From a virus (taxonomy: Duplodnaviria; Caudoviricetes), in IMG/VR virus record IMGVR_UViG_3300029825_000028, positions 1 to 34,277 of that record: 34,277 nucleotides of DNA, one strand, 5' to 3'. Position numbers and translations under genes: made by a program. Shown here in pieces: positions 7,000-28,177 of the stretch (positions are counted from its first letter, which is position 1; every line of letters begins with the position of its first letter). Under the pieces are notes generated by a model. That model saw only the letters and a list, made by a program, of their open reading frames with translations, did no database searches and was not told the origin of the DNA.

Positions 7000-7396
7000 A
7001 GTTAAACTTTTCTATTTCATCTACCGAACTTACAATTCTTCTGAACCGTGCTACCATTCGATAGATATTTGTATCGGCGGCATTTGAAATCTTCATAGGA
7101 CCGTAATTTCTTACATACCCCATAATCCTCATGCCGTCACATGCTTTGCTAATAATGTTCTTTGCCTCTGTAATGCTCTTATTGGAAAAGACCTGTATCT
7201 CCACCACGGATTGAACCGCATTCTCTGTGTTCTCCAAATCCATAGCATAATCGGGACTGTCGATTTGAACCACTCCCATATAAGGGAACTTAGCCGGAGT
7301 CTTGGAACTGTCGTCCCCTATTTCCGAACAAATGTCAGACACATGTTTCTTCAAATTTGAGAGCACGCGATTACTCACGTCAAGCAATTCGACCAC
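6998..7396 (-). CDS. Tail completion/terminator protein
   Basis: PAKFPY motif, ends RMVARFRR; immediately upstream of the major tail gene. Confidence 0.75.
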   Translation of the reverse strand: MVELLDVSNRVLSNLKKHVSDICSEIGDDSSKTPAKFPYMGVVQIDSPDYAMDLENTENAVQSVVEIQVFSNKSITEAKNIISKACDGMRIMGYVRNYGPMKISNAADTNIYRMVARFRRIVSSVDEIEKFN

Positions 7397-8021
7397 ACCC
7401 TTTCATACTTCTCAAATCTCCGGGATAAAATAAAACCTCTGGGTCTCTTATTCCTAGTTGATATCGTTTGTATGTACGCTTGTCATTTATCCCAAGTATT
7501 TCGCACCACTCCGCAACACATTTGTCTTCACCATGATAAATGATTCTAATATTACTTGTTTTATTTCTTGCCTGTTCTTTCATGGTTATAAACGTACAGT
7601 TTTCAGGACAATACCCCACATCAAGGCTTTTTCTTTCAATGCTTAAATCTGGGTTCCACCCGTTTTCTACAGCCCATTTTGCAAAAGCTCTAAAACTGCT
7701 TCTCCACTCCTTACAAACAGTAATTCCTCTTGCCCCATAAGTGTAAAATCTGTCTGAATTAGTTTTATAGCACCTGTCTCTCATATTTCTCCAAACGTTA
7801 TAAAGCCTTTCATAGTCGCGCGGATTCAATCCGACACTGTTCTTCATGGATTCATAAAGACAACCGCATGATTTGATATCACCCGCAACAACGGAATCAA
7901 TCCTTATATCCTTTTCTTTTCCACATTCACACCGGAATCTTCCGTAGCGCCGTTTTCCACGCATGGTATCAATTCCTAGATATGTAAGCATATTAAATTT
8001 ATCGCCTGCTTTTATTTTCAT
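7380..8021 (-). CDS. HNH-type (homing-like) endonuclease
   Basis: RCECG...SCGC N-terminus followed by RLYNVWRNMRDRC...YGARGITVCKEW...SIER...GYCPENC...EQARNK; start ATG 8021 behind SD GGAGG; inserted among neck genes. Confidence 0.8.
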   Translation of the reverse strand: MKIKAGDKFNMLTYLGIDTMRGKRRYGRFRCECGKEKDIRIDSVVAGDIKSCGCLYESMKNSVGLNPRDYERLYNVWRNMRDRCYKTNSDRFYTYGARGITVCKEWRSSFRAFAKWAVENGWNPDLSIERKSLDVGYCPENCTFITMKEQARNKTSNIRIIYHGEDKCVAEWCEILGINDKRTYKRYQLGIRDPEVLFYPGDLRSMKGCGRIA

Positions 8022-8115
8022 AGAAATCCTCCAACACAAAAAGCGTAGCATTTCGCCACGCCGAATTAATATTGATTGGAGAGTGTTCGGAACATACCCG
8101 AACATGCCTCGCTCT

Positions 8116-8619
8116 CTATGAGCCAAAAACGGTTTTCGCTATATTCGCAATCAAACTTGAATCTCTCAATGCCTGCGCCGTTTCAAACATGAATGGCCTA
8201 GAGGGTATCCCCTGTGTCCAATGCCAAGTGCCGTCCTTATAGTAGTACCAACCTTCGGCACCATAATCATGTATGTCATATTTCCAGCCAGCAATTGAAG
8301 GGTCTGGGTGAGGGTTCTCCTTGCCTTTTAAGCCGGTACCAAACTCATTGAATAATGCCCAACCGCAATTTGTGTAAATTAGATAAGTAGCTCCGTTTGT
8401 TACAACATCACCCTGTTCCAGATTCATACTATTAAGAAGGTCCCCTGTAAATACAGCATCAAAATCCAGTATCTTCAATTGAGCGATTGCGACACCCTCT
8501 TCTGCCATACGATAAGCGAACTCTTCGCATTTATCCGTCAGCTCCATGCGGTATGTGTGAATCTGTCTTGCGATATCACGGAATCCTTTAGCAGATAATC
8601 CGGTTGAATACTTACCCAT
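8116..8619 (-). CDS. HK97 gp10-like neck protein
   Basis: TGDLLNS, FNEFGTG and TQGIPSRPFM motifs. Confidence 0.8.
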   Translation of the reverse strand: MGKYSTGLSAKGFRDIARQIHTYRMELTDKCEEFAYRMAEEGVAIAQLKILDFDAVFTGDLLNSMNLEQGDVVTNGATYLIYTNCGWALFNEFGTGLKGKENPHPDPSIAGWKYDIHDYGAEGWYYYKDGTWHWTQGIPSRPFMFETAQALRDSSLIANIAKTVFGS

Positions 8620-15705: not shown

Positions 15706-15792
15706 AACATCCCCTCCTAAAATAAAAATGAGCCGGCAAATGCTATTTCTAACATTCATCGGCTCTGGTTCTTGACCCTGGCACTTTTTATT

Positions 15793-16020
15793 TTATAATT
15801 TTCTTCCACACATAGGACAATACTGCGGGTTTATGTTGTCATATACTGAATCATCTTCATAACGATATTTATTAAATCCATAGAAAACAAATTTCCCTTT
15901 TAACTTTGCCAGTATTAATTTCTCTCTTCCCGGAAAATCTTCTATTTATGCTGTTAATGGCTGACAGGAACATTCATCTTCGTCTTTTATAATTCTTATT
16001 TTTTCACAGTAACTGCACAT
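15793..16020 (-). pseudogene. Frameshifted small zinc-ribbon gene (MCxYC...YCPMCGRKL family)
   Basis: Start MCSYCEK (SD AGGAG) and end QYCPMCGRKL lie in different frames; adding one base near 15973 would join them. Confidence 0.6.
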
Positions 16021-16163
16021 ATTTTTCCACTCCTTATCACCGGATAATAGGCTTTCTTGCAATGCTTACACCATATCGGCGTATTCTCTATGTTTGACTT
16101 ATGTTCAATCCTCTGCGCCGTTTTATGACCGCAGGGGCAATAATACCAACCGTTCTTAATCAT
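15996..16163 (-). CDS. Cys-rich KTR / Com-like zinc finger (55 aa, not in the ORF track)
   Basis: MIKNGWYYCPCGHKTAQRIEHKSNIENTPIWCKHCKKAYYPVIRSGKICAVTVKK; fits the W..CP.(C)G.KT...N.P..C..CK pattern. Confidence 0.7.
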   Translation of the reverse strand: MIKNGWYYCPCGHKTAQRIEHKSNIENTPIWCKHCKKAYYPVIRSGKICAVTVKK

Positions 16164-16167
16164 GTCC

Positions 16168-17364
16168 TCACTCACTCGCTTTAAAATTGTATACAGGCTT
16201 AATGATGTCTAATATATCTATTGTGTCAACGGTACTGTTAATAATATCAGCCATTGGCTTATATGCCATAGGACTTTCATCAATAGTTGACTGGCAAACA
16301 GAAGTTGTGTGAATACCTTCCATTGACTTTTGGAATTCTTCCAGAGAAATGTTTTCTCTTGCCTTTGTCCTGCTCATAATTCTGCCGGCACCATGCGGAG
16401 CTGATTGGTTCCAATCGTCATTTGACTTGCCTACTCCAATAATGCAACCGTCACGCATGTTTATAGGAATAAGCAGTTCTTCACCTTCTCTGGCCGCAAT
16501 AGCACCCTTGCGGACGATATTGGATTCATGGTCGATATAGTTATGAATGGTTTGAAATGACGAGCCTTGCAAATATCCCCACCCCATGTTTTCATAAATA
16601 ACTCCAGCAATCTCTGTCCGGTTAGTCATTGCGAAAAGCTGACATATTTGCATATCGTGCAAATACATTTTTCTATGTTCGCCAGTCAAATAACACAATT
16701 CCTTTGGTACATTCGGATTCTCTGAATGGATTTTCCTTCTCAAGTCTGAAAGACCTTTTTCTATCTCATTCTGTCTTCCAGTGGACTTGTAAAGTTCAAT
16801 CAGTTTTTTACTCTCAATGTTTAGTTTTCCTGCACCTTGCATATCATCAATAGCCATTTGCTGATATATATCTGCGACTTGTTTGCCCAGATTGCGACTG
16901 CCAGTATGGATAACCAAGTATTTCTCGCCTTTCGAGCCTTCATCAATTTCAATAAAATGATTACCGCCTCCAAGCGAACCGATACTGCGCTTTATCCGGT
17001 CAACATTCCTTAACTTCTCTTTGCAGTACAATTCATCAATCAACGGAAATGGTATTTCTTTATCATTGACGGCTCTTCCGGCCGGTATGTGATTTCTGAT
17101 AACAGAATCAAGTTTATCATAGTCAATGTCTATATCTCCGAGTTCGCAAGCAAGCATCCCGCATCCAACATCAACTCCAACGATGTTAGGAATTACTTTG
17201 TCGCCTAAATCAGCGGTAAATCCTATTACACAGCCCTTTCCAGCATGAACATCAGGCATAATGCGGATTTTACTATCAGAAAACGCAGGATTGTCAGCCA
17301 GCTCATGTATCTGTCTTAATGCTTCTGGTTCTACGTTTTTTGCAAATATTTTTAAATCACTCAT
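16168..17364 (-). CDS. rtcB: RtcB-family RNA ligase
   Basis: Catalytic motifs are intact: MPDVH, VGVDVGCG, GSLGGGNHFIE, IHTGSR, HNY, RKGA, SAPHGAGR, DESPMAYK. Start is 17364 by SD spacing; 17370 is possible. Confidence 0.97.
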   Translation of the reverse strand: MSDLKIFAKNVEPEALRQIHELADNPAFSDSKIRIMPDVHAGKGCVIGFTADLGDKVIPNIVGVDVGCGMLACELGDIDIDYDKLDSVIRNHIPAGRAVNDKEIPFPLIDELYCKEKLRNVDRIKRSIGSLGGGNHFIEIDEGSKGEKYLVIHTGSRNLGKQVADIYQQMAIDDMQGAGKLNIESKKLIELYKSTGRQNEIEKGLSDLRRKIHSENPNVPKELCYLTGEHRKMYLHDMQICQLFAMTNRTEIAGVIYENMGWGYLQGSSFQTIHNYIDHESNIVRKGAIAAREGEELLIPINMRDGCIIGVGKSNDDWNQSAPHGAGRIMSRTKARENISLEEFQKSMEGIHTTSVCQSTIDESPMAYKPMADIINSTVDTIDILDIIKPVYNFKASE

Positions 17365-17608
17365 TTTCATCACCTCTCATAAACAAAGATACTGGCGGCT
17401 GCCCGCTGATTACAGAAAGATAGACGCAAGGCCGCTTTCCAGATTCAATTACTTTGAGCAGTTGCGTGACATCTTCATCGGAAAACTCCCAACATGACGT
17501 GCTTTCCATTGATGCAAACTCATAATTGTATTTCCGAAAAGTCGGCAAGTCCATACAACCATCTCGCCTGCATATGCAATTTTGTTCTGGAAAATTTACT
17601 GGAATCAT
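17357..17608 (-). CDS. Hypothetical phage protein
   Basis: SD GAGG; overlaps the rtcB start; M.PV.F.E.N...C.DLP...SCW...QPPV pattern. Confidence 0.75.
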   Translation of the reverse strand: MIPVNFPEQNCICRRDGCMDLPTFRKYNYEFASMESTSCWEFSDEDVTQLLKVIESGKRPCVYLSVISGQPPVSLFMRGDENE

Positions 17609-17629
17609 GCTTATACCTCACTTTCTGCA

Positions 17630-17667
17630 ATAAAAAACCAACCACCGAATATTGGTGATTGGTTTTT
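17630..17667 (-). terminator. Moron terminator
   Basis: ACCAATCACC-aatattc-GGTGGTTGGT followed by TTTTT. Confidence 0.8.
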
Positions 17668-17678
17668 CAAGTACATAT

Positions 17679-17849
17679 TTACTTTATTTTTTTGTTCAGC
17701 AAATCAAGAATGTCATCCGCAATATTTTTCACATTGTAAGTATAGTCCGTATTGCTGCTTATAGTTTCTGCATCAGAAGAAATGTTTTTCAACTCATCAC
17801 GTATTTGCTTAAGCAATACTATAATTTCATCCGCCTGATCTTCATTCAT
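17679..17849 (-). CDS. Moron: 56-aa acidic coiled-coil protein
   Basis: SD AAGGAGG with its own promoter and terminator; the longer ORF call starting at 18089 is an artefact. Confidence 0.75.
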   Translation of the reverse strand: MNEDQADEIIVLLKQIRDELKNISSDAETISSNTDYTYNVKNIADDILDLLNKKIK

Positions 17850-17883
17850 AATCATTATCCTCCTTGCCAAATTTGATAGGAAG

Positions 17884-17912
17884 ATTATACCATTCCAACC
17901 ACCAATATTCAA
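17884..17912 (-). promoter_or_regulatory. sigmaA promoter of the moron
   Basis: TTGAAT-17 bp-TATAAT with TG extension. Confidence 0.8.
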
Positions 17913-18133
17913 TTGCCAAGGTTCAATTTTTCTATACTGCCCGTAAAAGGGCGTTGCATTTATATACTGCCCGTTCAGGGCTTTGTTTTTGAGATACAGA
18001 GCCGCCATGAGGTAACGGCCCTGCACTGTTGCGATTCTTAAACATTCAGGATATACTGGAAACAAACCACCATACGATAGTGAAATCATTGTTTTTAGTT
18101 ACCCGGCGGACAACCGCAACAAAAACGCCGGAG

Positions 18134-18206
18134 CTGGATAAGTAGGAGTCGAACCTACAACCTTTCGGTTAACAGCCGAATGCTCTGCCAATTGAGCTAT
18201 TATCCA
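18134..18206 (-). tRNA. tRNA-Asn(GTT)
   Basis: Full cloverleaf: TGGATAA/TTATCCA, GCTC/GAGC, TTCGG-CTGTTAA-CCGAA, GTAGG-TTCGACT-CCTAC; discriminator G; no encoded CCA. Confidence 0.95.
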
Positions 18207-18470
18207 TTAGCGGGTTCCCCCGCTGTCGGATGTATTTATCGTGTCTCCGTATCGCACTATGAGGTTTTGCCAGCTTTCGCCGTAAGAATTACGCCATTAC
18301 CTCCAACTCTCCGCGTGCATATAGCATCTCGGCTATCCCGTGGCATATGCAAGACCGGGCATCCATTTAGTCGCTTGGGCAAGCGGACGGTTTCAAGCGT
18401 GTCCTGCCGACAACTAGATTTTGCTCTGGCATTCGCCTGCATGTAGTATCTCCCACCTGCTTTGAAGCAA

Positions 18471-18601
18471 TTGAGCGGACAGAGATTTGCACTCTGCATG
18501 GGGCCTTGGCTAGCACCCGTGTAACCGCTTAAGGTCCCTCTAAGGTGATTCCCCTGTTATACCAAGGCTTTAACTGCGTTTACCTATTCCGCCACCGCTC
18601 A
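18471..18601 (-). ncRNA. tRNA-like RNA with an expanded arm in place of the anticodon arm
   Basis: Acceptor TGAGCGG/CCGCTCA; Leu-type D arm TG-GCGGAATAGGTAAACGC; T arm GCAGAG-TGCAAAT-CTCTGT; central GCCTTGGT/GCCAAGGC stem enclosing about 50 nt. Confidence 0.75.
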
Positions 18602-18781
18602 AATTTATCCACACCCTCGCAGAAGGTGAACCGGTATGTCATTTAGTGATGTGGATAAAACTTGCTACTCACAGCTGATTTTCGCAAGCCTTTTCTTTCC
18701 CGGCTTATTTATCGACAACTCCGGCAATTCCACGCTGAATCTGCGAACAGATGCATTGCAGAATTATGGAGACCTATGTTT

Positions 18782-19042
18782 TTATTTGCAAAGAGCCTGA
18801 ACAATCAGGTTCGTCACCATAAAGATTATTCCAGCCACAGCGGATGCCAGTAGACACTTTATAATCGTCCAGCCGACAATAGTTCCCGTAAGCGTTCCGG
18901 CGTCAAATGCAGCACATGCGGCTAAAATTGGTTTGATAAACATTATCCACCCACCAAAATAGATTGCTGCACCGATTCCAACAATCAAAATCAGAATCGC
19001 TATAATCACTTTAATCATTGCTTTCTTCTGGTCTTTATTCAT
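18782..19042 (-). CDS. Membrane protein (2-3 TM)
   Basis: Long hydrophobic segments; SD GGAGG. Confidence 0.8.
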   Translation of the reverse strand: MNKDQKKAMIKVIIAILILIVGIGAAIYFGGWIMFIKPILAACAAFDAGTLTGTIVGWTIIKCLLASAVAGIIFMVTNLIVQALCK

Positions 19043-20810: not shown

Positions 20811-21452
20811 TCAAAACTCCGGTTCTGGTGGCTGCTGTTTTTCGCCCTGATCGGGCCGCTGCTCCAGATACTTCCGCTCCATGCCTGGAATGTCCGGGTT
20901 TTTTTGTCTTTGGTTCTGCCCTCTCGGCTGCCCCATGTTCCAGCCGTAATAACGATTGAGCACGCCCAAAACTCCAACCGGATTGATTTTCCCGGACACT
21001 AACTTGTCGCTTAAAGAGGCCTCTCTTTCGGTAGCCAGTTTTTTGACTATGCCAGACGTGCCGCGCTGAGTTTCAGGCCCGTTATTCCATGCATATATAG
21101 TCTCTGTAGTAATGCCAGTCATCTTACTAAAGCCTAATACAGATATCTCTTTTTCATACTCTGAACATAGTCTTATATACATATCACATACGGTATCTAT
21201 TAACCCTTGATTAGAGTAGTCAATATTGCTATTTTCGTTGTATCTCTTAACATCACTTTTAAGAGGCTTAAAGACATGGTCATAAATATAAAACAATACG
21301 CTATTCCAACGGTTTTGAGTCATTGAGTGTAGATCAGAATCTTTTAGTTTATGCTCTTCTGCATACTCTTGTACGTATAAATCTATATCGTTCTTATACA
21401 CTTCTACTTTCTGCTCCGTTGTTATAATTTCCTGTCCTTGTACTTTCTCCAT
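20811..21452 (-). CDS. terS: Putative terminase small subunit
   Basis: HTH-like GFSKMTGITTETIYAW and a NPVGVLGVLNRYYGWN oligomerisation-type motif; first gene of the transcription unit leading to terL. Confidence 0.7.
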   Translation of the reverse strand: MEKVQGQEIITTEQKVEVYKNDIDLYVQEYAEEHKLKDSDLHSMTQNRWNSVLFYIYDHVFKPLKSDVKRYNENSNIDYSNQGLIDTVCDMYIRLCSEYEKEISVLGFSKMTGITTETIYAWNNGPETQRGTSGIVKKLATEREASLSDKLVSGKINPVGVLGVLNRYYGWNMGQPRGQNQRQKNPDIPGMERKYLEQRPDQGEKQQPPEPEF

Positions 21453-22260: not shown

Positions 22261-22509
22261 CTATTTGCTTTTATCGTCTGTAGATGCTTTTTTACTCTCT
22301 GGTATATACTCCATAATCTGCCCCGGCTGACAGCCCAGCAACTCACAGATTTTTTGTATAGTCCTTGTGTCTATATGTCCAGAACCGTCTTTTAACTTTG
22401 CCACAATCCCAGGGCTTATCTTTGCATCACGGAGATACTGCCACCGCTTGCCCTTGCTTTCAAGTACCTTCTCTAATTTTTTAAAACTTATTTTCACATC
22501 TTCGGTCAT
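22261..22509 (-). CDS. Cro/C1-type HTH transcriptional regulator
   Basis: ISFKKL...ISPGIVAKLK...IDTRTIQKICELLGCQPGQIMEY (HTH_26-like). Confidence 0.9.
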   Translation of the reverse strand: MTEDVKISFKKLEKVLESKGKRWQYLRDAKISPGIVAKLKDGSGHIDTRTIQKICELLGCQPGQIMEYIPESKKASTDDKSK

Positions 22510-22537: not shown

Positions 22538-22668
22538 ATCATATCATTTTTACCGTACTATATCAAGTAATGGATTTTCGTACTATATTTAGTACATTTT
22601 GCACAAATAAATCGTACTATGTTTAGTAATATTGTCCATTGAATTTTCGTACTATCTATAGTAATATA
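22538..22668. promoter_or_regulatory. Divergent promoters with four palindromic operators
   Basis: CGTACTAT-NNN-(T/A)AGTA at 22554, 22579, 22613 and 22648; minus promoter TTGATA-17-TATGAT; plus promoter TTGAAT-17-TAATAT. Confidence 0.85.
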
Positions 22669-22719
22669 TAACCATAGCAACAAGGAAATCGAAAAATTCA
22701 AAAATGGAGGAAAAAAATC

Positions 22720-23136
22720 ATGATGACATTAAAAAATCTAAAAGCAGCAGTTAAAGACGGGACAATTGAGCTTTCTCACTACTCACTTACACGCGAGCAT
22801 AACGGCTATGTTAGCACAAAGGTTATGGAGACTGAGCCAGAAGAATACGCTGGGGAATACGGAATCGGGTTTGTAACCTATGAGAACAACCGGAAAAGTA
22901 CCCGTTACTGCTGGAAAAATTATTATATTTTTAAAAATTCCAATGAACTGAAAACCTTGGAAAAGTTGCAAAAACTTGACAAGCGGCTTGTAACCGCTGC
23001 AAAGCTGGCAGAGCTGGAAGGGATGCCGGAGGTCGAAAAAATCGAGTGTCTCGGGGCAAGTAGCCAAGTTCCCGGCGCAAACTGGTATGATGTACAGTTG
23101 GCCGACGGTTCCAGCATTGATATTTACACAAGATAA
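22720..23136 (+). CDS. Hypothetical early protein
   Basis: SD GGAGG; first gene of the divergent operon. Confidence 0.85.
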   Translation: MMTLKNLKAAVKDGTIELSHYSLTREHNGYVSTKVMETEPEEYAGEYGIGFVTYENNRKSTRYCWKNYYIFKNSNELKTLEKLQKLDKRLVTAAKLAELEGMPEVEKIECLGASSQVPGANWYDVQLADGSSIDIYTR

Positions 23137-23160
23137 ACAACCACCGCCCCACTCGGGGCG

Positions 23161-23210
23161 CTGTAATGCAGCCACAGCCGGTTCCAAGCCCGGAAAAATG
23201 CAGAGGACAG
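23161..23210 (+). ncRNA. Twister ribozyme (type P1)
   Basis: CTG-TAA-TGCA-GCC-ACA-GCCGG-TTCCAAGC-CCGG-AAAAA-TGCA-GAGG-A-CAG matches the twister core (UAA, GCC, CCGGU.CCAAGCCCGG, GAGG) with P1 CTG/CAG and P2 TGCA/TGCA; predicted cut U23164/A23165. Confidence 0.9.
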
Positions 23211-23234
23211 AAAAAAATGAATGGAGGAAATATC

Positions 23235-24254
23235 ATGAAATATTTCAAAAATGTGAAGAGTTTTGAAAATCTGAAAGCACAGTATAAAACACTACTAAAA
23301 AAGAACCACCCGGACAACGGTGGAGACGTGGAGGAAATGAAAAACATTAACGTCGAATTTGATGCACTCTTTCCAATATGGAAAGACCGTAAAGAAGTTG
23401 AAACAGGCGAAAAAGTAAAAGAGACGTCAGCCGAAATGCGCCGCCACTTTTACACAGAATTCGGCTGGGAAGGTAGCCGCTATGATTCTAACATGAGCAC
23501 GACTGAAATTGCAAAAGCGATTAGGTTGTACTGCAAGGAAAAATATCCAACTTGGAAATTTTCTGTTACAACAGAGTATTTTTCTGGTGGTTCCTCAATT
23601 AATTTTTCTGTGATGGAAGCTCCTGTTGACATCTACAACCGCAGCTACTTTTCGCTCCCATTTTATCCAGAACGCCATTTTGGACGGATTGAAGGGTATC
23701 GTAATGACGGTTGGACGATGTTTGATAAGATGACAGAGGAAAATGACTACTATATGCAAATTCACAGCATATCAAAAAGTCGTTCCGATTATAGATTTTT
23801 AAATGATATCGGATACGAAACTTTGCTTGATGTTTATCTGTTTATGCAATCTTACAATTATGATGATTCAGATAGCCAAATTGATTATTTTTCCACTAAT
23901 TTTTATAGTAGTTTTAACATTGGAAAATGGAATAAAGGCTTTAAAATTGTTCCGAAAACGGCCCGAATTAAAAACAAAGAAACTGCGCTAACAAAGAAAT
24001 CTAAAAAGACAGAGACACAGCAAAAGCAGGAAGAGCCAAAACAGCTTAAAGGCGAATACACATATAAAATTACACGCGGAGAGGACACCCGGGACGGTTC
24101 CGAGCTCTGGATTGTCCGCATCGCGGAAAGTCTCGACCGTGCCGCATATCTGGCAGAATTGGCAGCAATGAAAGAGCGTGGCGGATATTATAGCCGTTTC
24201 CGAAACGGCTTTATATTCCGTGTGGATCCGGCGGAACTTTTAAAAACAGCATAG
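23235..24254 (+). CDS. J-domain plus LPD29-like (polyvalent-protein-associated) protein
   Basis: N-terminal LKAQYKTLLKKNHPDNGGD (HPD motif); AKAIR...YP.WKFSV...SGGSSI...SYNYDDSDSQIDYF..NFY; start moved to ATG 23235 behind SD GGAGG. Confidence 0.8.
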   Translation: MKYFKNVKSFENLKAQYKTLLKKNHPDNGGDVEEMKNINVEFDALFPIWKDRKEVETGEKVKETSAEMRRHFYTEFGWEGSRYDSNMSTTEIAKAIRLYCKEKYPTWKFSVTTEYFSGGSSINFSVMEAPVDIYNRSYFSLPFYPERHFGRIEGYRNDGWTMFDKMTEENDYYMQIHSISKSRSDYRFLNDIGYETLLDVYLFMQSYNYDDSDSQIDYFSTNFYSSFNIGKWNKGFKIVPKTARIKNKETALTKKSKKTETQQKQEEPKQLKGEYTYKITRGEDTRDGSELWIVRIAESLDRAAYLAELAAMKERGGYYSRFRNGFIFRVDPAELLKTA

Positions 24255-24340
24255 CAGGCAGACAAGAGCGAAACTGGGGAGCATTTCCCCGGCTGCCTTT
24301 TACATCCTAGCCCCCAGGGAGAAGGGGAGAAAGTTAAAAA

Positions 24341-24580
24341 ATGAAAAACAAAGTATTGTTCCAGATATTGAAAGCTGCAAATTGGGTGGCCGCCCGATGT
24401 GTTTTGGCAATCGATAGCGGCTTGAGCTTGCAAGCTCGCCGCAGAAAAGAATTAGTAATAAAAGCCTTTAGGAAGGCTTCGCTGTCAATTGAATATAGCG
24501 GGGCTCCAGAGGCGTTAATTTGGGACGAACTCGCCGGATTAACGAATGAAGAACTCGAAAAAATTGTGCGGAATAAATGA
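24341..24580 (+). CDS. Hypothetical protein
   Basis: 79 aa; SD GGGGAG. Confidence 0.7.
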   Translation: MKNKVLFQILKAANWVAARCVLAIDSGLSLQARRRKELVIKAFRKASLSIEYSGAPEALIWDELAGLTNEELEKIVRNK

Positions 24581-24648
24581 GCCGAAACTCTCCATATATC
24601 CGGAGAGTCCGCCGAGGAATAGCCGCCCGGCGCTGATGAGGCAGGCTA
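24581..24648 (+). ncRNA. Hammerhead ribozyme (type II, pseudoknotted)
   Basis: GCC-GAAA-CTCTCC-loop-GGAGAG-TC|CGCCG-loop-CGGCG-CTGATGA-GGC; the core is complete and all three stems pair; loop I TAGCC pairs with the 3' tail GGCTA; predicted cut after C24609. Confidence 0.92.
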
Positions 24649-24733
24649 AAAAGAAATAAAATAATGGCGAAATCCTGCCACACGTGTTATGATATGGGCA
24701 GGATAAAGCGACGAAAAAAGAGGAGGAAAAAAG

Positions 24734-24958
24734 ATGTTAGACGAAACAATGAAGGCTATGCAGGCTCTCGAGAGCCACGGGTATAATTTTGACAATCTAA
24801 AGAGTGTTTCCGGTATCCATGTTAATGATTCTGGAAATCTCGAGTACAACTTCATGGCTGGAGACATAACCGGATACACTATGGAGCTGGACCCGGAAAC
24901 CGGAGAGAGCCGGCACCGGGGAAATGGTCCGGGCTGTTTTTGGACGGACTGGGGATAA
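24734..24958 (+). CDS. Hypothetical protein
   Basis: SD AGGAGG; candidate own promoter TGGCGA-17-TATGAT. Confidence 0.75.
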   Translation: MLDETMKAMQALESHGYNFDNLKSVSGIHVNDSGNLEYNFMAGDITGYTMELDPETGESRHRGNGPGCFWTDWG

Positions 24959-24964
24959 TTTTCA

Positions 24965-24995
24965 AGCTGGCGGCGATATGCTGCCGGCTCTTTTT
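24965..24995 (+). terminator. Intrinsic terminator ending the plus-strand operon
   Basis: AGCTGGCGGC-gatat-GCTGCCGGCT followed by CTTTTT. Confidence 0.8.
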
Positions 24996-25431
24996 AGTGC
25001 ATAAATTTATGTTTTAATTCAACACCTGGATGTTTTAGGGGGATTTCGTGCCCTGCATGCAGGCCTATATTGTACGCTTGTATTTTCCCCTTGCGATATC
25101 CGCCAGGCCGTGCTATGCTTTTTGTAGCCGGACATTTAACAAGGCTGTAATTTGCGATTTAAGTCATTTTAAGTGTTTGGGTTAACTACTTAGCACTTGG
25201 GCATACAAGCCATTAAACAGAGCCACACGCAAGCGCACAGCACGTGTAAATTGAGTGGATATATCCTGATTTGCCAGAAAAAGGACGTCAGAATGAATAA
25301 TTGTTTCTGCGTCCAGATTCTAGCCCTCTAAAATTTAGGTACCGAAAATTTTTTTTGGCGAAAGTTTCAGGGAAGTTCTGAAAAAAGGCCCTAAAAACGC
25401 GCGACTTTTCAGGATTTTTTTGAAAAACTTT

Positions 25432-26127
25432 TTATTTTTTCTTCATATTTTCCCATTGCTCTGGATATTCTTTGGAGAACCATTCAAGGAAATTTCCAAA
25501 AAGAGCCTCTTCTGCTGATTCCCTTGCTTTGATAGCGTCTGATTTGTCTTCATATCTACCAAGACTATATGTTTTTCCCTTAAATTTTATTTGAGATTTC
25601 CATTTGTCTCTATTCCAGCTCACGCCCGTGTGACCGGACGTGTTGTCTTTCCGGGTCCGCATTGTGAGGTTTCTGACATTTGTTCCTTCTACTGAATATT
25701 CCTTTGTTATGGATGCTAGATTATTGCCTAGTTTTGTTTGAAGCTCATCTCTGATACAACCGCAACTTTTCACTCGTCCACCAACTAAGTCGCTTGCGGA
25801 AATATCTTTATGTCCGCCGCATTCACATTCACAATTCCAAATAACGCTCCCATTCTCTGATCTTCTTTCTGTGGATTTTATGGCTGTTAATCTTCCAAAT
25901 TTCTTTCCAGATAAATTGTCTTGTTGGAATTGTGTTTTTTCTCTAAGGCAACCGCAACTCTGGTTTCTTCCGTTTATTATTCCGTCAGATCGCATCCACT
26001 TGCGACTTCTACAGAGTTCACATTCCACAAAGAAATAACTGCGATTATTTTCCCTTTTCCAGTCCAGGATATTAAGATATCCTATTGTGGTTCCAACCCG
26101 ATCAGATACTTTTACTTTCTTAGCCAT
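25432..26127 (-). CDS. AP2-domain DNA-binding protein with two Cys-rich repeats
   Basis: Two C.C..C...SCGC repeats; NTSGHTGVSW...W.SQI....LGRY...AIKAR (AP2); start ATG 26127. Confidence 0.85.
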   Translation of the reverse strand: MAKKVKVSDRVGTTIGYLNILDWKRENNRSYFFVECELCRSRKWMRSDGIINGRNQSCGCLREKTQFQQDNLSGKKFGRLTAIKSTERRSENGSVIWNCECECGGHKDISASDLVGGRVKSCGCIRDELQTKLGNNLASITKEYSVEGTNVRNLTMRTRKDNTSGHTGVSWNRDKWKSQIKFKGKTYSLGRYEDKSDAIKARESAEEALFGNFLEWFSKEYPEQWENMKKK

Positions 26128-26128
26128 T

Positions 26129-26446
26129 TTAATAAAATTCCTCAATGTATTTCCAAACCAAATCTGTAATTTCATCCAGGTCAGAATATCTCTGGCCCAT
26201 TTCATCATCATTCCAAAACATTTCCAACCCAGAGTATCCCATGTGGTTCTTCCTAAACATACAAAACCAATTGTCATTTTCTTTATTGTATCTTGCCAGT
26301 ATATCAGGCTTGTCATGGTATTTATCTTGGAGATAAACATACTTAACTCCGTGCTTGGAATGTTCAACTTGATAAAGGTAATACTGTAACCGTCTTTTCA
26401 CTGCCTCTTTCGTTGTGGCTTTCAAATTAATTTTACCTTGCGCCAT
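26129..26446 (-). CDS. Hypothetical protein
   Basis: 105 aa; abuts both neighbours; SD GGAGG. Confidence 0.75.
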   Translation of the reverse strand: MAQGKINLKATTKEAVKRRLQYYLYQVEHSKHGVKYVYLQDKYHDKPDILARYNKENDNWFCMFRKNHMGYSGLEMFWNDDEMGQRYSDLDEITDLVWKYIEEFY

Positions 26447-27517: not shown

Positions 27518-28177
27518 CTAACTTTTCCACTGTTCAGGATGTGCTTCTTTATACCATTCTAGGAAAGGGCCATAGATGTGTCTTTCAGCTTCTTCCCTCG
27601 CGATTACGGCATTGATTTTTTCATCAAATCTTCCAAGGAAATACTTCCTTTTCTGAAACATGATTTCGGCTGCCCATTTCCCGCGATTTTCATCATACCA
27701 TACACCAGTTACTCCAGACGTATTTGTACTTCTGGGTTTTTGTGACTTTAATTTGCTTGGAGCTGTACCATTTATATATAATTCCTTTACTTTATCCTTT
27801 TGAAGACATCCGCATGATTGCGTATTTCCTGAGAGTAGATCATGGCTCCTCACAAAAGTTTCTTTTCCACAATCACACTTGCACCGCCATATTGTAAGTC
27901 TCGTTTTATCAGACTTTGTAGGCTCAATAGCTATCAATCTTCCAAATCTCATTCCGGTCAAGTCTTTTTTAGGCCGCCTATATACACAGCCACAATTTTT
28001 AATTTCCCCACGCAAAAGATTCGCCCTGGTGGCATATTTTATATTTCCGCAATCACATCGACACTTATATAATCTCCTGCCATAGGAATTGCGTTTATCT
28101 GATAACTCCAAAACGGTAAGCATATTATATTTTTGTCCAATCATACTTAAATCTGGCTTTTTAGGCATTTTCACCAT
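27518..28177 (-). CDS. AP2-domain protein with two Cys-rich repeats (paralog of 25432-26127)
   Basis: CRCDCG...CGC twice; NTSGVTGVWY...KWAAEI...FLGRF...A..AR. Confidence 0.85.
   Translation of the reverse strand: MVKMPKKPDLSMIGQKYNMLTVLELSDKRNSYGRRLYKCRCDCGNIKYATRANLLRGEIKNCGCVYRRPKKDLTGMRFGRLIAIEPTKSDKTRLTIWRCKCDCGKETFVRSHDLLSGNTQSCGCLQKDKVKELYINGTAPSKLKSQKPRSTNTSGVTGVWYDENRGKWAAEIMFQKRKYFLGRFDEKINAVIAREEAERHIYGPFLEWYKEAHPEQWKS

What the first reader, a model, noticed from the sequence alone, without database searches (positions are those of the whole stretch)
23161..24648. Twister and hammerhead ribozymes bracket an mRNA in a phage that encodes RtcB: candidate natural circular-mRNA or RNA re-ligation system
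Seen: a complete twister (cut 23164/23165) and a complete type II hammerhead (cut 24609/24610) lie on the same strand in one operon. They flank the J-domain/LPD29 gene and a 79-aa gene, both with their SDs. An intact rtcB lies about 6 kb away (16168-17364). Established: both ribozyme classes leave 5'-OH and 2',3'-cyclic phosphate ends, RtcB joins these ends, and the engineered Tornado system uses ribozyme-flanked RNA plus RtcB to make circles. Ribozymes in Clostridia prophages are known individually. Inference: the 1445-nt fragment 23165-24609 could be circularised (junction ...GGAGAGUC|AAUGCAGCC...) into an exonuclease-resistant mRNA, or the outer pieces could be spliced (23164 to 24610). Simpler alternative: the ribozymes only segment or stabilise the mRNA and RtcB repairs tRNA.
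Basis: partly seen in the sequence, partly recalled or inferred. Interest (0 to 1): 0.92.

Follow-up and report, generated by a model that had tools for sequence, protein, structure and literature searches.

The report
Ribozymes cutting a phage accessory operon
Two self-cutting RNA motifs flank two genes in a phage operon and likely cut one long message into three separate linear messages, a layout described in phages in 2011; the phage's RNA ligase gene comes and goes among relatives that keep such ribozyme pairs, so a circular-mRNA system is unlikely.

Summary
A twister (23160-23211) and a type II hammerhead (24580-24650) lie on the + strand around the LPD29 and 79-aa genes, and rtcB is intact. 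The circular-mRNA reading is not supported.

rtcB lies on the opposite strand, between tRNA-Asn and the terminase gene. None of 94 phage records with this twister subfamily holds rtcB, including five at least 91% complete with the same twister-genes-hammerhead order. Among terminase-selected relatives, 12 of 19 records with a ribozyme pair lack rtcB; two sisters 98% identical share one pair and only one has rtcB. A raw link exists (7/9 vs 12/43, p=0.008) but fades within clades (p=0.32). The fragment's ends pair more weakly than all 11 swapped controls; Tornado relies on an 18-bp stem.

Most likely the ribozymes cut a repressor-controlled, probably early anti-defence, transcript into separately translated linear pieces, and RtcB repairs tRNA. 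Perreault 2011 described this layout and found no circles. This scan reached the same verdict on five other genomes. No RNA data were available, so circles are untested.

The parts
22261..22509 (-). Cro/C1-type HTH repressor gene, divergent from the ribozyme operon
   Evidence: PF13443 E 1.4e-10; homologues at the same place in many relatives
22554..22663 (.). four operator-like repeats (starts 22554, 22579, 22613, 22648); the last overlaps a weak by-eye promoter (-35 at 22639-22644, -10 at 22662-22667)
   Evidence: 5 matches (4 sites, one read on both strands) vs 0.11 expected; the promoter is by eye only and was not listed by the scan
22720..23136 (+). gene 1 of the operon, 138 aa, no known family
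   Evidence: ribosome site
23145..23160 (+). GC-rich hairpin just 5' of the twister; would remain on the 3' end of the upstream piece
   Evidence: general among related twisters (85 of 89 fold better than shuffles)
23160..23211 (+). type P1 twister ribozyme, predicted cut 23164/23165
   Evidence: 55 bits, E 7.4e-10; covariation
23235..24254 (+). gene 2, 339 aa, LPD29 domain with a weak J-domain-like N-terminus
   Evidence: PF18847 E 8e-15, PF00226 E 0.012 below cut-off
24255..24300 (+). terminator-like hairpin followed by U4, inside the would-be circle
   Evidence: fold z -0.95, so weak
24341..24580 (+). gene 3, 79 aa, no known family; its stop codon abuts the hammerhead
24580..24650 (+). type II hammerhead ribozyme with loop I/3'-tail pseudoknot, predicted cut 24609/24610
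   Evidence: 51.4 bits, E 6.2e-8; covariation
24734..24958 (+). gene 4, 74 aa, no known family
24965..24999 (+). intrinsic terminator closing the operon
   Evidence: fold z -3.4
16168..17364 (-). rtcB, 398 aa, in the variable interval between the 213-aa gene at 20811-21452 (likely small terminase, inferred from position) and the large terminase
18133..18206 (-). tRNA-Asn(GTT), same strand and block as rtcB
15737..18910 (.). rtcB + tRNA-Asn block bounded by a 7-nt direct repeat (15737-15743, 18904-18910); DNA contigs of two studies join across it
   Evidence: (joint 15736 to 18904 in X1 and X2; short side only 23-30 letters)

Best explanation
A twister and a hammerhead ribozyme sit between genes of a four-gene phage operon and likely cut its transcript into three linear, separately translated messages, while the opposite-strand RtcB is likely an unrelated tRNA-repair gene. 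Shown: the two motifs, their intergenic positions, a ribosome site for each of the four genes, the divergent HTH gene with four operator-like repeats, the closing terminator, and the independent gain and loss of rtcB among relatives. Inferred: the operon (about 22670-24995) is read early, before the HTH repressor builds up, and carries counter-defence cargo (LPD29). Co-transcriptional cutting gives piece 1 (gene 1, ending in a hairpin plus cyclic phosphate), piece 2 (1445 nt; 5'-OH start, hammerhead stem III plus cyclic phosphate end) and piece 3 (gene 4; 5'-OH start). The 3' hairpins would shield upstream pieces from 3' exonucleases. The 5'-OH ends would be entry points for RNase J in a Lachnospiraceae host, as for glmS, so I lean (about 55:45) to cutting that shortens and uncouples the life of downstream messages rather than stabilising them. 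The hairpin-ribozyme-ribosome-site unit acts as a swappable boundary, which suits an operon whose genes turn over fast.
For: Architecture: of 89 distinct twisters, 85 have a 5' hairpin stronger than shuffles (mean -11.5 vs -6.7 kcal/mol) and 67 have a ribosome site and start within 120 nt of the cut; 30 of 34 hammerheads do too; controls 66 of 445 and 14 of 170 within 60 nt of a random point. Class and order are interchangeable at this site: hammerhead-hammerhead, twister-hammerhead, twister-twister-hammerhead, pistol-twister, and the enclosed genes differ. rtcB is dispensable: 0 of 94 twister-bearing records, 0 of 39 at least 90% complete; G001, with two twisters, a 59%-identical LPD29 gene and a hammerhead, has none although its terminase-to-operon interval is covered; G010 and G018 are 98.4% identical over 7168 bp including the same pair, and only G010 has rtcB. 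Only 4 of 48 rtcB-selected records (4 of 38 at least 90% complete) have a hammerhead pair. 65 of 71 rtcB loci have a same-strand tRNA nearby. RNase J in 5 of 5 host-side genomes. Literature: PMC3088659, PMC6765202, PMC3997798, PMC7824862, PMC13551039.
Against: No RNA evidence of cleavage, timing or half-life. In the lineage, pairs are commoner in rtcB-bearing records (7 of 9 vs 12 of 43, Fisher p=0.008; clade-stratified p=0.32, with only one informative clade). Host RtcB could stand in where the phage lacks it (3 of 5 host-side genomes hold an rtcB). The tRNA link does not single out rtcB: 44 of 46 rtcB-free relatives also have tRNAs in that interval vs 11 of 13 rtcB-bearing ones. The LPD29 gene also occurs without any detected ribozyme (8 of 9 loci), so cutting is not needed for that gene. 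The twister score is below Rfam's gathering cut-off.
Confidence: 0.76

Rival explanations
1. Selected circular mRNA: RtcB (phage or host) joins the 5'-OH at 23165 to the cyclic phosphate at 24609, giving a stable two-gene circle.
For: End chemistry is right and RtcB is intact. RtcB circularises ribozyme-released retrozyme RNAs in vitro, 30% to over 80% (PMC7229834). Raw lineage lean towards co-occurrence. All but 2 of 27 excised fragments hold at least one complete gene. Host rtcB exists in 3 of 5 genomes.
Against: No closing stem: the ends' duplex (-11.5 kcal/mol) is weaker than all 11 swapped-end controls, and across 27 fragments own minus swapped is -0.1 +/- 4.5; Tornado uses an 18-bp or longer stem. 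The 3' end is one nucleotide beyond a fully paired hairpin. A terminator-like hairpin lies inside the fragment. rtcB is absent from most pair-bearing phages and on the other strand. Perreault 2011 looked for spliced and circular products from such clusters and found none (data not shown there, and the passages read do not say whether a ligase was present).
Confidence: 0.06
2. Skip-splicing: RtcB joins 23164 to 24610, removing the two middle genes from the message.
For: Chemically compatible ends. The two 40-nt outer ends form a duplex of -22.1 kcal/mol.
Against: That duplex is within one standard deviation of random pairs from the operon (mean -19.0, sd 6.9 for 60-mers) and competes with each ribozyme's own fold. 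No reading frame would be joined. Same lack of rtcB dependence as above.
Confidence: 0.02
3. The ribozymes are passengers on small mobile gene cassettes (ribozyme plus ribosome site plus gene) that are swapped by recombination; cutting is tolerated, with little effect on this phage's fitness.
For: Identical or near-identical ribozyme units sit before different genes; close relatives have 0, 1 or 2 ribozymes; the LPD29 gene does without them elsewhere.
Against: Catalytic cores and pseudoknots are kept with compensatory changes and unrelated classes replace each other at one site, which points to selection for cutting.
Confidence: 0.12
4. One or both motifs do not cleave in context and act only as structure.
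For: Twister below Rfam's gathering score; not assayed.
Against: All core nucleotides match the consensus; the native context folds into the ribozyme helices; three similar clusters cleaved in vitro in PMC3088659.
Confidence: 0.04

Closest known systems
Clustered hammerhead ribozymes flanking single genes or short gene blocks in prophages (Perreault et al. 2011, PMC3088659; passages read)
   Same: Same-strand ribozymes between genes of a phage operon, variable gene content, type II hammerhead with loop I/3'-tail pseudoknot, anti-defence-type cargo (ardA there, LPD29 here; an ArdC-N gene in L049); processing into gene-sized mRNAs proposed, circles sought and not found.
   Different: Here one member is a twister, and the phage also encodes RtcB about 6 kb away on the other strand.
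Shared gene contexts of bacterial twister, hammerhead and pistol ribozymes (review PMC6765202; passages read)
   Same: Unrelated classes found near each other and near phage genes; the exact motif appears unimportant; polycistronic processing suggested, purpose still open.
   Different: This report adds an in-lineage test against rtcB and counts for the hairpin and ribosome-site layout.
Tornado circular RNA system (bioRxiv 10.1101/2023.07.11.548538; passages read)
   Same: [quoted passage not shown]
   Different: Tornado has an engineered 18-bp or longer stem holding the ends together; the phage fragment has none.
Retrozymes (PMC7229834; passages read)
   Same: Natural ribozyme-released RNAs that RtcB circularises in vitro.
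   Different: Short tandem repeats with one hammerhead per unit, in animals; here two different ribozymes bound a unique 1445-nt coding piece.
Phage RtcB with phage tRNAs as RNA repair (PMC7824862; passages read)
   Same: rtcB beside tRNA genes on the same strand.
   Different: Described for jumbo phages; this is a temperate siphovirus-like phage of Lachnospiraceae with relatives of about 55-80 kb.
Aca-regulated anti-defence operons (PMC13551039; passage read)
   Same: HTH-controlled operon of small unknown genes; four LPD29 genes were found in aca4 operons.
   Different: Here the HTH gene is divergent and was not tested as an Aca family member; that paper does not mention ribozymes.

Membership tests
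twister ribozyme, type P1 (RF03160) | P1, P2, P4 helices, two pseudoknots and conserved core around the U/A cut | tested here: met
   alignment, E 7.4e-10; covariation
twister ribozyme, type P1 (RF03160) | Rfam gathering score 67.2 bits | tested here: not met
   55.0 bits; this short subfamily scores 32-55 bits wherever seen
twister ribozyme, type P1 (RF03160) | site-specific self-cleavage | not testable with these tools
   needs an in vitro assay
type II hammerhead (RF02276) | CUGANGA/GAAA/NUH core, stems I and III closed, stem II open, score above 37 bits | tested here: met
   51.4 bits; pseudoknot covaries
type II hammerhead (RF02276) | site-specific self-cleavage | not testable with these tools
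   needs an in vitro assay
clustered phage ribozymes flanking gene blocks (Perreault 2011) | two or more same-strand ribozymes, intergenic, in a phage operon | tested here: met
clustered phage ribozymes flanking gene blocks (Perreault 2011) | enclosed genes not constant among relatives | tested here: met
RtcB ligases (PF01139) | full-length domain with conserved metal-binding and guanylylated residues | tested here: met
   residue roles recalled
Tornado-like ribozyme/RtcB circularisation | 5'-OH and cyclic-phosphate ends on one fragment | tested here: met
   follows from the two ribozyme classes and their order, if both cleave
Tornado-like ribozyme/RtcB circularisation | stem that brings the two ends together | tested here: not met
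Tornado-like ribozyme/RtcB circularisation | dependence on a phage ligase (co-occurrence) | tested here: not met
   a host ligase is not excluded
Tornado-like ribozyme/RtcB circularisation | covalent circle detected | not testable with these tools
   no RNA holder listed
Aca-regulated anti-defence operon | HTH of a known Aca family repressing an acr promoter | not tested
   HTH and operator-like repeats seen; no Aca or Acr comparison was run

The most novel reading that the evidence does not exclude
Ribozyme-released phage mRNA segments are circularised in vivo by RtcB (the phage's own when present, otherwise the host's), making this the first natural ribozyme-plus-RtcB circular mRNA in bacteria; the lean of rtcB towards ribozyme-rich clades would then be real.
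Probability: 0.06. Interest if true: 0.85.

Novelty: new member of a known kind. Interest (0 to 1): 0.2.

Why it matters
What clustered ribozymes do for phages has been open since 2011. This locus does not answer it, but its lineage gives natural controls: sister phages 98% identical that keep the same ribozyme pair with and without rtcB (G010, G018), complete phages with pairs and no rtcB (G159, G163, G164), and the same LPD29 gene with and without ribozymes. If circles were found after all, it would be a natural counterpart of the Tornado system and the first translated circular mRNA of this type in bacteria; my searches listed no such report, though most subscription papers are outside the library.

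Tried and rejected
RNA evidence: no RNA holder listed; this is no evidence either way. DNA contigs showed no joint at either cut site.

Depth in run X1 (ribozyme contig 46.6, exact rtcB contig 6.75, a diverged rtcB contig 19.8, deletion joint 14.2) hints at strains with and without rtcB. It is not used as a count because contig depth cannot rank genes and X1 may be the window's source.

A new ribosome site at the circle junction: the AUG at 23166 inside the twister is in frame with the LPD29 gene and a GGAG ends the fragment. Only 11 of 78 twisters have that AUG open into the next gene, about chance, and the GGAG is fully paired in stem III. Rejected.

Fragment length modulo 3 shows no pattern. 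Hidden ribozymes of other classes in 29 relatives' early regions: one pistol found (G161), none in the 14 regions. Promoter scan: 9 sites vs 9.7 expected, uninformative. PADLOC: no match for the four operon genes.

My regex for pistol ribozymes gave only spurious hits and was dropped. Model R1 was built with a mis-registered structure and not used; R2 contains one pair (columns 7-54) that the later count reassigned to the pseudoknot. The twister search of 48 rtcB-selected records found none but had no positive control in that call. tRNA co-occurrence does not discriminate rtcB-bearing from rtcB-free relatives. The p-value printed used a denominator of 44 by mistake; one search has the corrected 43. 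PMC8008677 and PMC8782182 gave nothing on RtcB with phage ribozymes.

Full report
Setting. The window is a whole 34,277-base virus record with portal, capsid, tail, terminase and integrase genes on the minus strand. Terminase relatives in named genomes are mostly Lachnospiraceae prophages (36 loci). Runs that hold the operon DNA are mostly fermentation metagenomes, none RNA.

Observation. Rfam finds twister-P1 at 23160-23211 (55.0 bits, E 7.4e-10, under the gathering score) and Hammerhead_II at 24580-24650 (51.4 bits, E 6.2e-8), both on +. Related motifs support both folds by two-sided changes, pseudoknots included (these alignments were picked by motif, so core conservation is partly built in). 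The cuts fall at 23164/23165 and 24609/24610, 1445 nt apart. rtcB is intact. Contigs of a second study cover both ribozymes without differences.

Anatomy. The ribozymes lie in a four-gene + strand operon: 138 aa, twister, LPD29 protein (339 aa), 79 aa, hammerhead, 74 aa, terminator. Every gene has its own GGAG-type ribosome site. Upstream, a Cro/C1 HTH gene points away, and four operator-like repeats lie between (0.11 expected). LPD domains are proposed to act early in invasion (PMC5512222, passages), and LPD29 genes occur in Aca-regulated operons (PMC13551039, passage); early timing and counter-defence are inferences from these. rtcB is on the minus strand, 0.65 kb before the large terminase gene and 0.8 kb after tRNA-Asn, so probably in a late unit (inference from position).

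Does the pair need rtcB? Test 1, selected by the twister: a pattern scan gave 95 viral loci; 94 records could be searched and none holds rtcB, 0 of 39 at least 90% complete. In the 80 loci with flanks, 17 have two or more same-strand ribozymes within 4 kb; 16 of these were searched for rtcB, none has it, six are at least 90% complete, and five (L045, L052, L068, L101, L114) have the window's twister-then-hammerhead order. Some of the 17 are near-duplicates. rtcB is rare among viral contigs overall (about 1500 stretches in 2.9 million contigs), so this shows that phage rtcB is not required, not that there is no enrichment.

Test 2, selected by terminase. 66 records were searched whole for rtcB (the 26 loci less one not held, and 41 of the 59 new loci, those on contigs of 20 kb or more that were held); 15 have it. 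Ribozymes were called with Rfam and my models R2 and R3. Adding the window and L017 (rtcB judged from its locus) and dropping 16 records cut before the operon (7 with rtcB, 9 without) leaves 52. Pairs occur in 7 of 9 with rtcB and 12 of 43 without (Fisher p=0.008). That raw lean is against my reading, and dropping the seven cut rtcB records favours it. On the terminase tree (quick IQ-TREE search, the careful one did not finish) every clade where rtcB-bearing phages have pairs also has rtcB-free sisters with pairs: 2/2 vs 2/2, 1/1 vs 1/1, 4/5 vs 4/8, 0/1 vs 0/3; stratified permutation p=0.32. The raw signal comes from clades lacking both traits, including nine near-identical records. G010 and G018 are 98.4% identical over 7168 bp with the same two hammerheads; in G018 the genes that flank rtcB are neighbours and rtcB is gone. 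G001, the closest match in layout (two twisters, LPD29 gene 59% identical, hammerhead), has six tRNAs and no rtcB in a covered interval.

Test 3, selected by rtcB: of 48 records of 50 kb or more (from the 80 loci), 15 have a type II hammerhead and 4 have a pair; no twister was found. G145 has rtcB and an LPD29 gene with no detected ribozyme. A weak further hint: DNA contigs in two studies join 15736 to 18904 at a 7-nt direct repeat, removing rtcB and tRNA-Asn; the short side is only 23-30 letters.

Are the ends built for ligation? Tornado uses a paired junction of 18 bp or more (bioRxiv 2023.07.11.548538, passages). Here the best end-to-end helix is 6 bp at probability about 0.3, starting 15 nt in from the 5' end. 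The first and last 40 nt pair more weakly than all 11 swapped controls, and over 27 distinct excised fragments own ends are no better than swapped ends. The 3' end is the hammerhead's stem III, fully paired to the penultimate base. A terminator-like hairpin at 24255-24300 may stop part of transcription inside the fragment (weak).

What the layout is built for. In 85 of 89 distinct twisters a hairpin lies just 5' of the cut, and a ribosome site with a start follows within 120 nt in 67 of 89 twisters and 30 of 34 hammerheads. So upstream pieces end in a hairpin and downstream pieces start at 5'-OH shortly before their own ribosome site. A similar dispensable upstream stem is reported for 90% of hatchet ribozymes (PMC10761166, passage); an optional P0 stem in twisters is recalled, not confirmed. 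Classes swap at this site, including a pistol-twister pair in G161, and the enclosed genes are mostly small and unrelated. In Bacillus, ribozyme-made 5'-OH ends are attacked by RNase J1 (PMC3997798, passages), and RNase J is in 5 of 5 host-side genomes. I therefore infer segmentation that uncouples, and more likely shortens, the life of downstream messages. Phage RtcB is described as repairing cut tRNAs (PMC7824862, passages); 65 of 71 rtcB loci have a same-strand tRNA nearby, though rtcB-free relatives have tRNAs there too.

Known or new. PMC3088659 (passages; supplements not read) describes hammerheads flanking single genes or short blocks in prophages, shows cleavage of three clusters including one from Clostridium scindens, raises spliced or circular products and reports finding neither. 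PMC6765202 (passages) states that twister and hammerhead share these contexts and that the purpose is open. Earlier agents of this scan reached the same verdict on five other genomes; those are unchecked notes, used only for the paper lead. Searches listed no report of RtcB-made circular mRNA from phage ribozyme pairs; I saw listings only for papers not named above.

Verdict. Real feature, new member of a known kind. Linear segmentation 0.76, passenger cassettes 0.12, selected circle 0.06, inactive motifs 0.04, skip-splicing 0.02. Host RtcB and incidental low-level ligation are not excluded. Interest 0.2.

Noticed in passing
window 22554-22663: Four operator-like repeats between the HTH gene and the ribozyme operon; resembles Aca-type self-contained control of an anti-defence operon. 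The four operon genes could be screened for anti-CRISPR or anti-restriction activity.
   Followed up: partly
window 15737-18910: rtcB plus tRNA-Asn block bounded by a 7-nt direct repeat; DNA contigs in two studies join across it, and run X1 also holds a diverged rtcB variant.
   Followed up: partly
window 24667-24710: Strong hairpin (z -4.5) between the hammerhead and gene 4 that contains an extended -10-like hexamer; could be an internal promoter, operator or 5' stabiliser.
   Followed up: no
window 23166-23234: The AUG inside the twister is in frame with the LPD29 gene (362-aa ORF); frequency among relatives is at chance level (11 of 78).
   Followed up: yes
L387 2596-3015 (G161): Pistol plus twister pair at the same operon position in an rtcB-free relative.
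   Followed up: partly
L052 3995-7654: Five ribozymes (four twisters, one hammerhead) in 3.7 kb of one operon in a 93% complete record without rtcB.
   Followed up: partly
L060 3977-4053, L117 3995-4061: Twisters whose 3' strands appear upstream of the core (L060 matches Twister-P5; L117 looks alike): permuted forms of the same subfamily.
   Followed up: no
window 7380-8126, 25432-26340, 27518-28177: Three HNH homing-endonuclease-like genes, one with an AP2 domain match.
   Followed up: no
terminase relatives, interval upstream of the large terminase: Highly variable tRNA sets (0 to 8 genes) in 59 relatives; 55 have at least one.
   Followed up: partly
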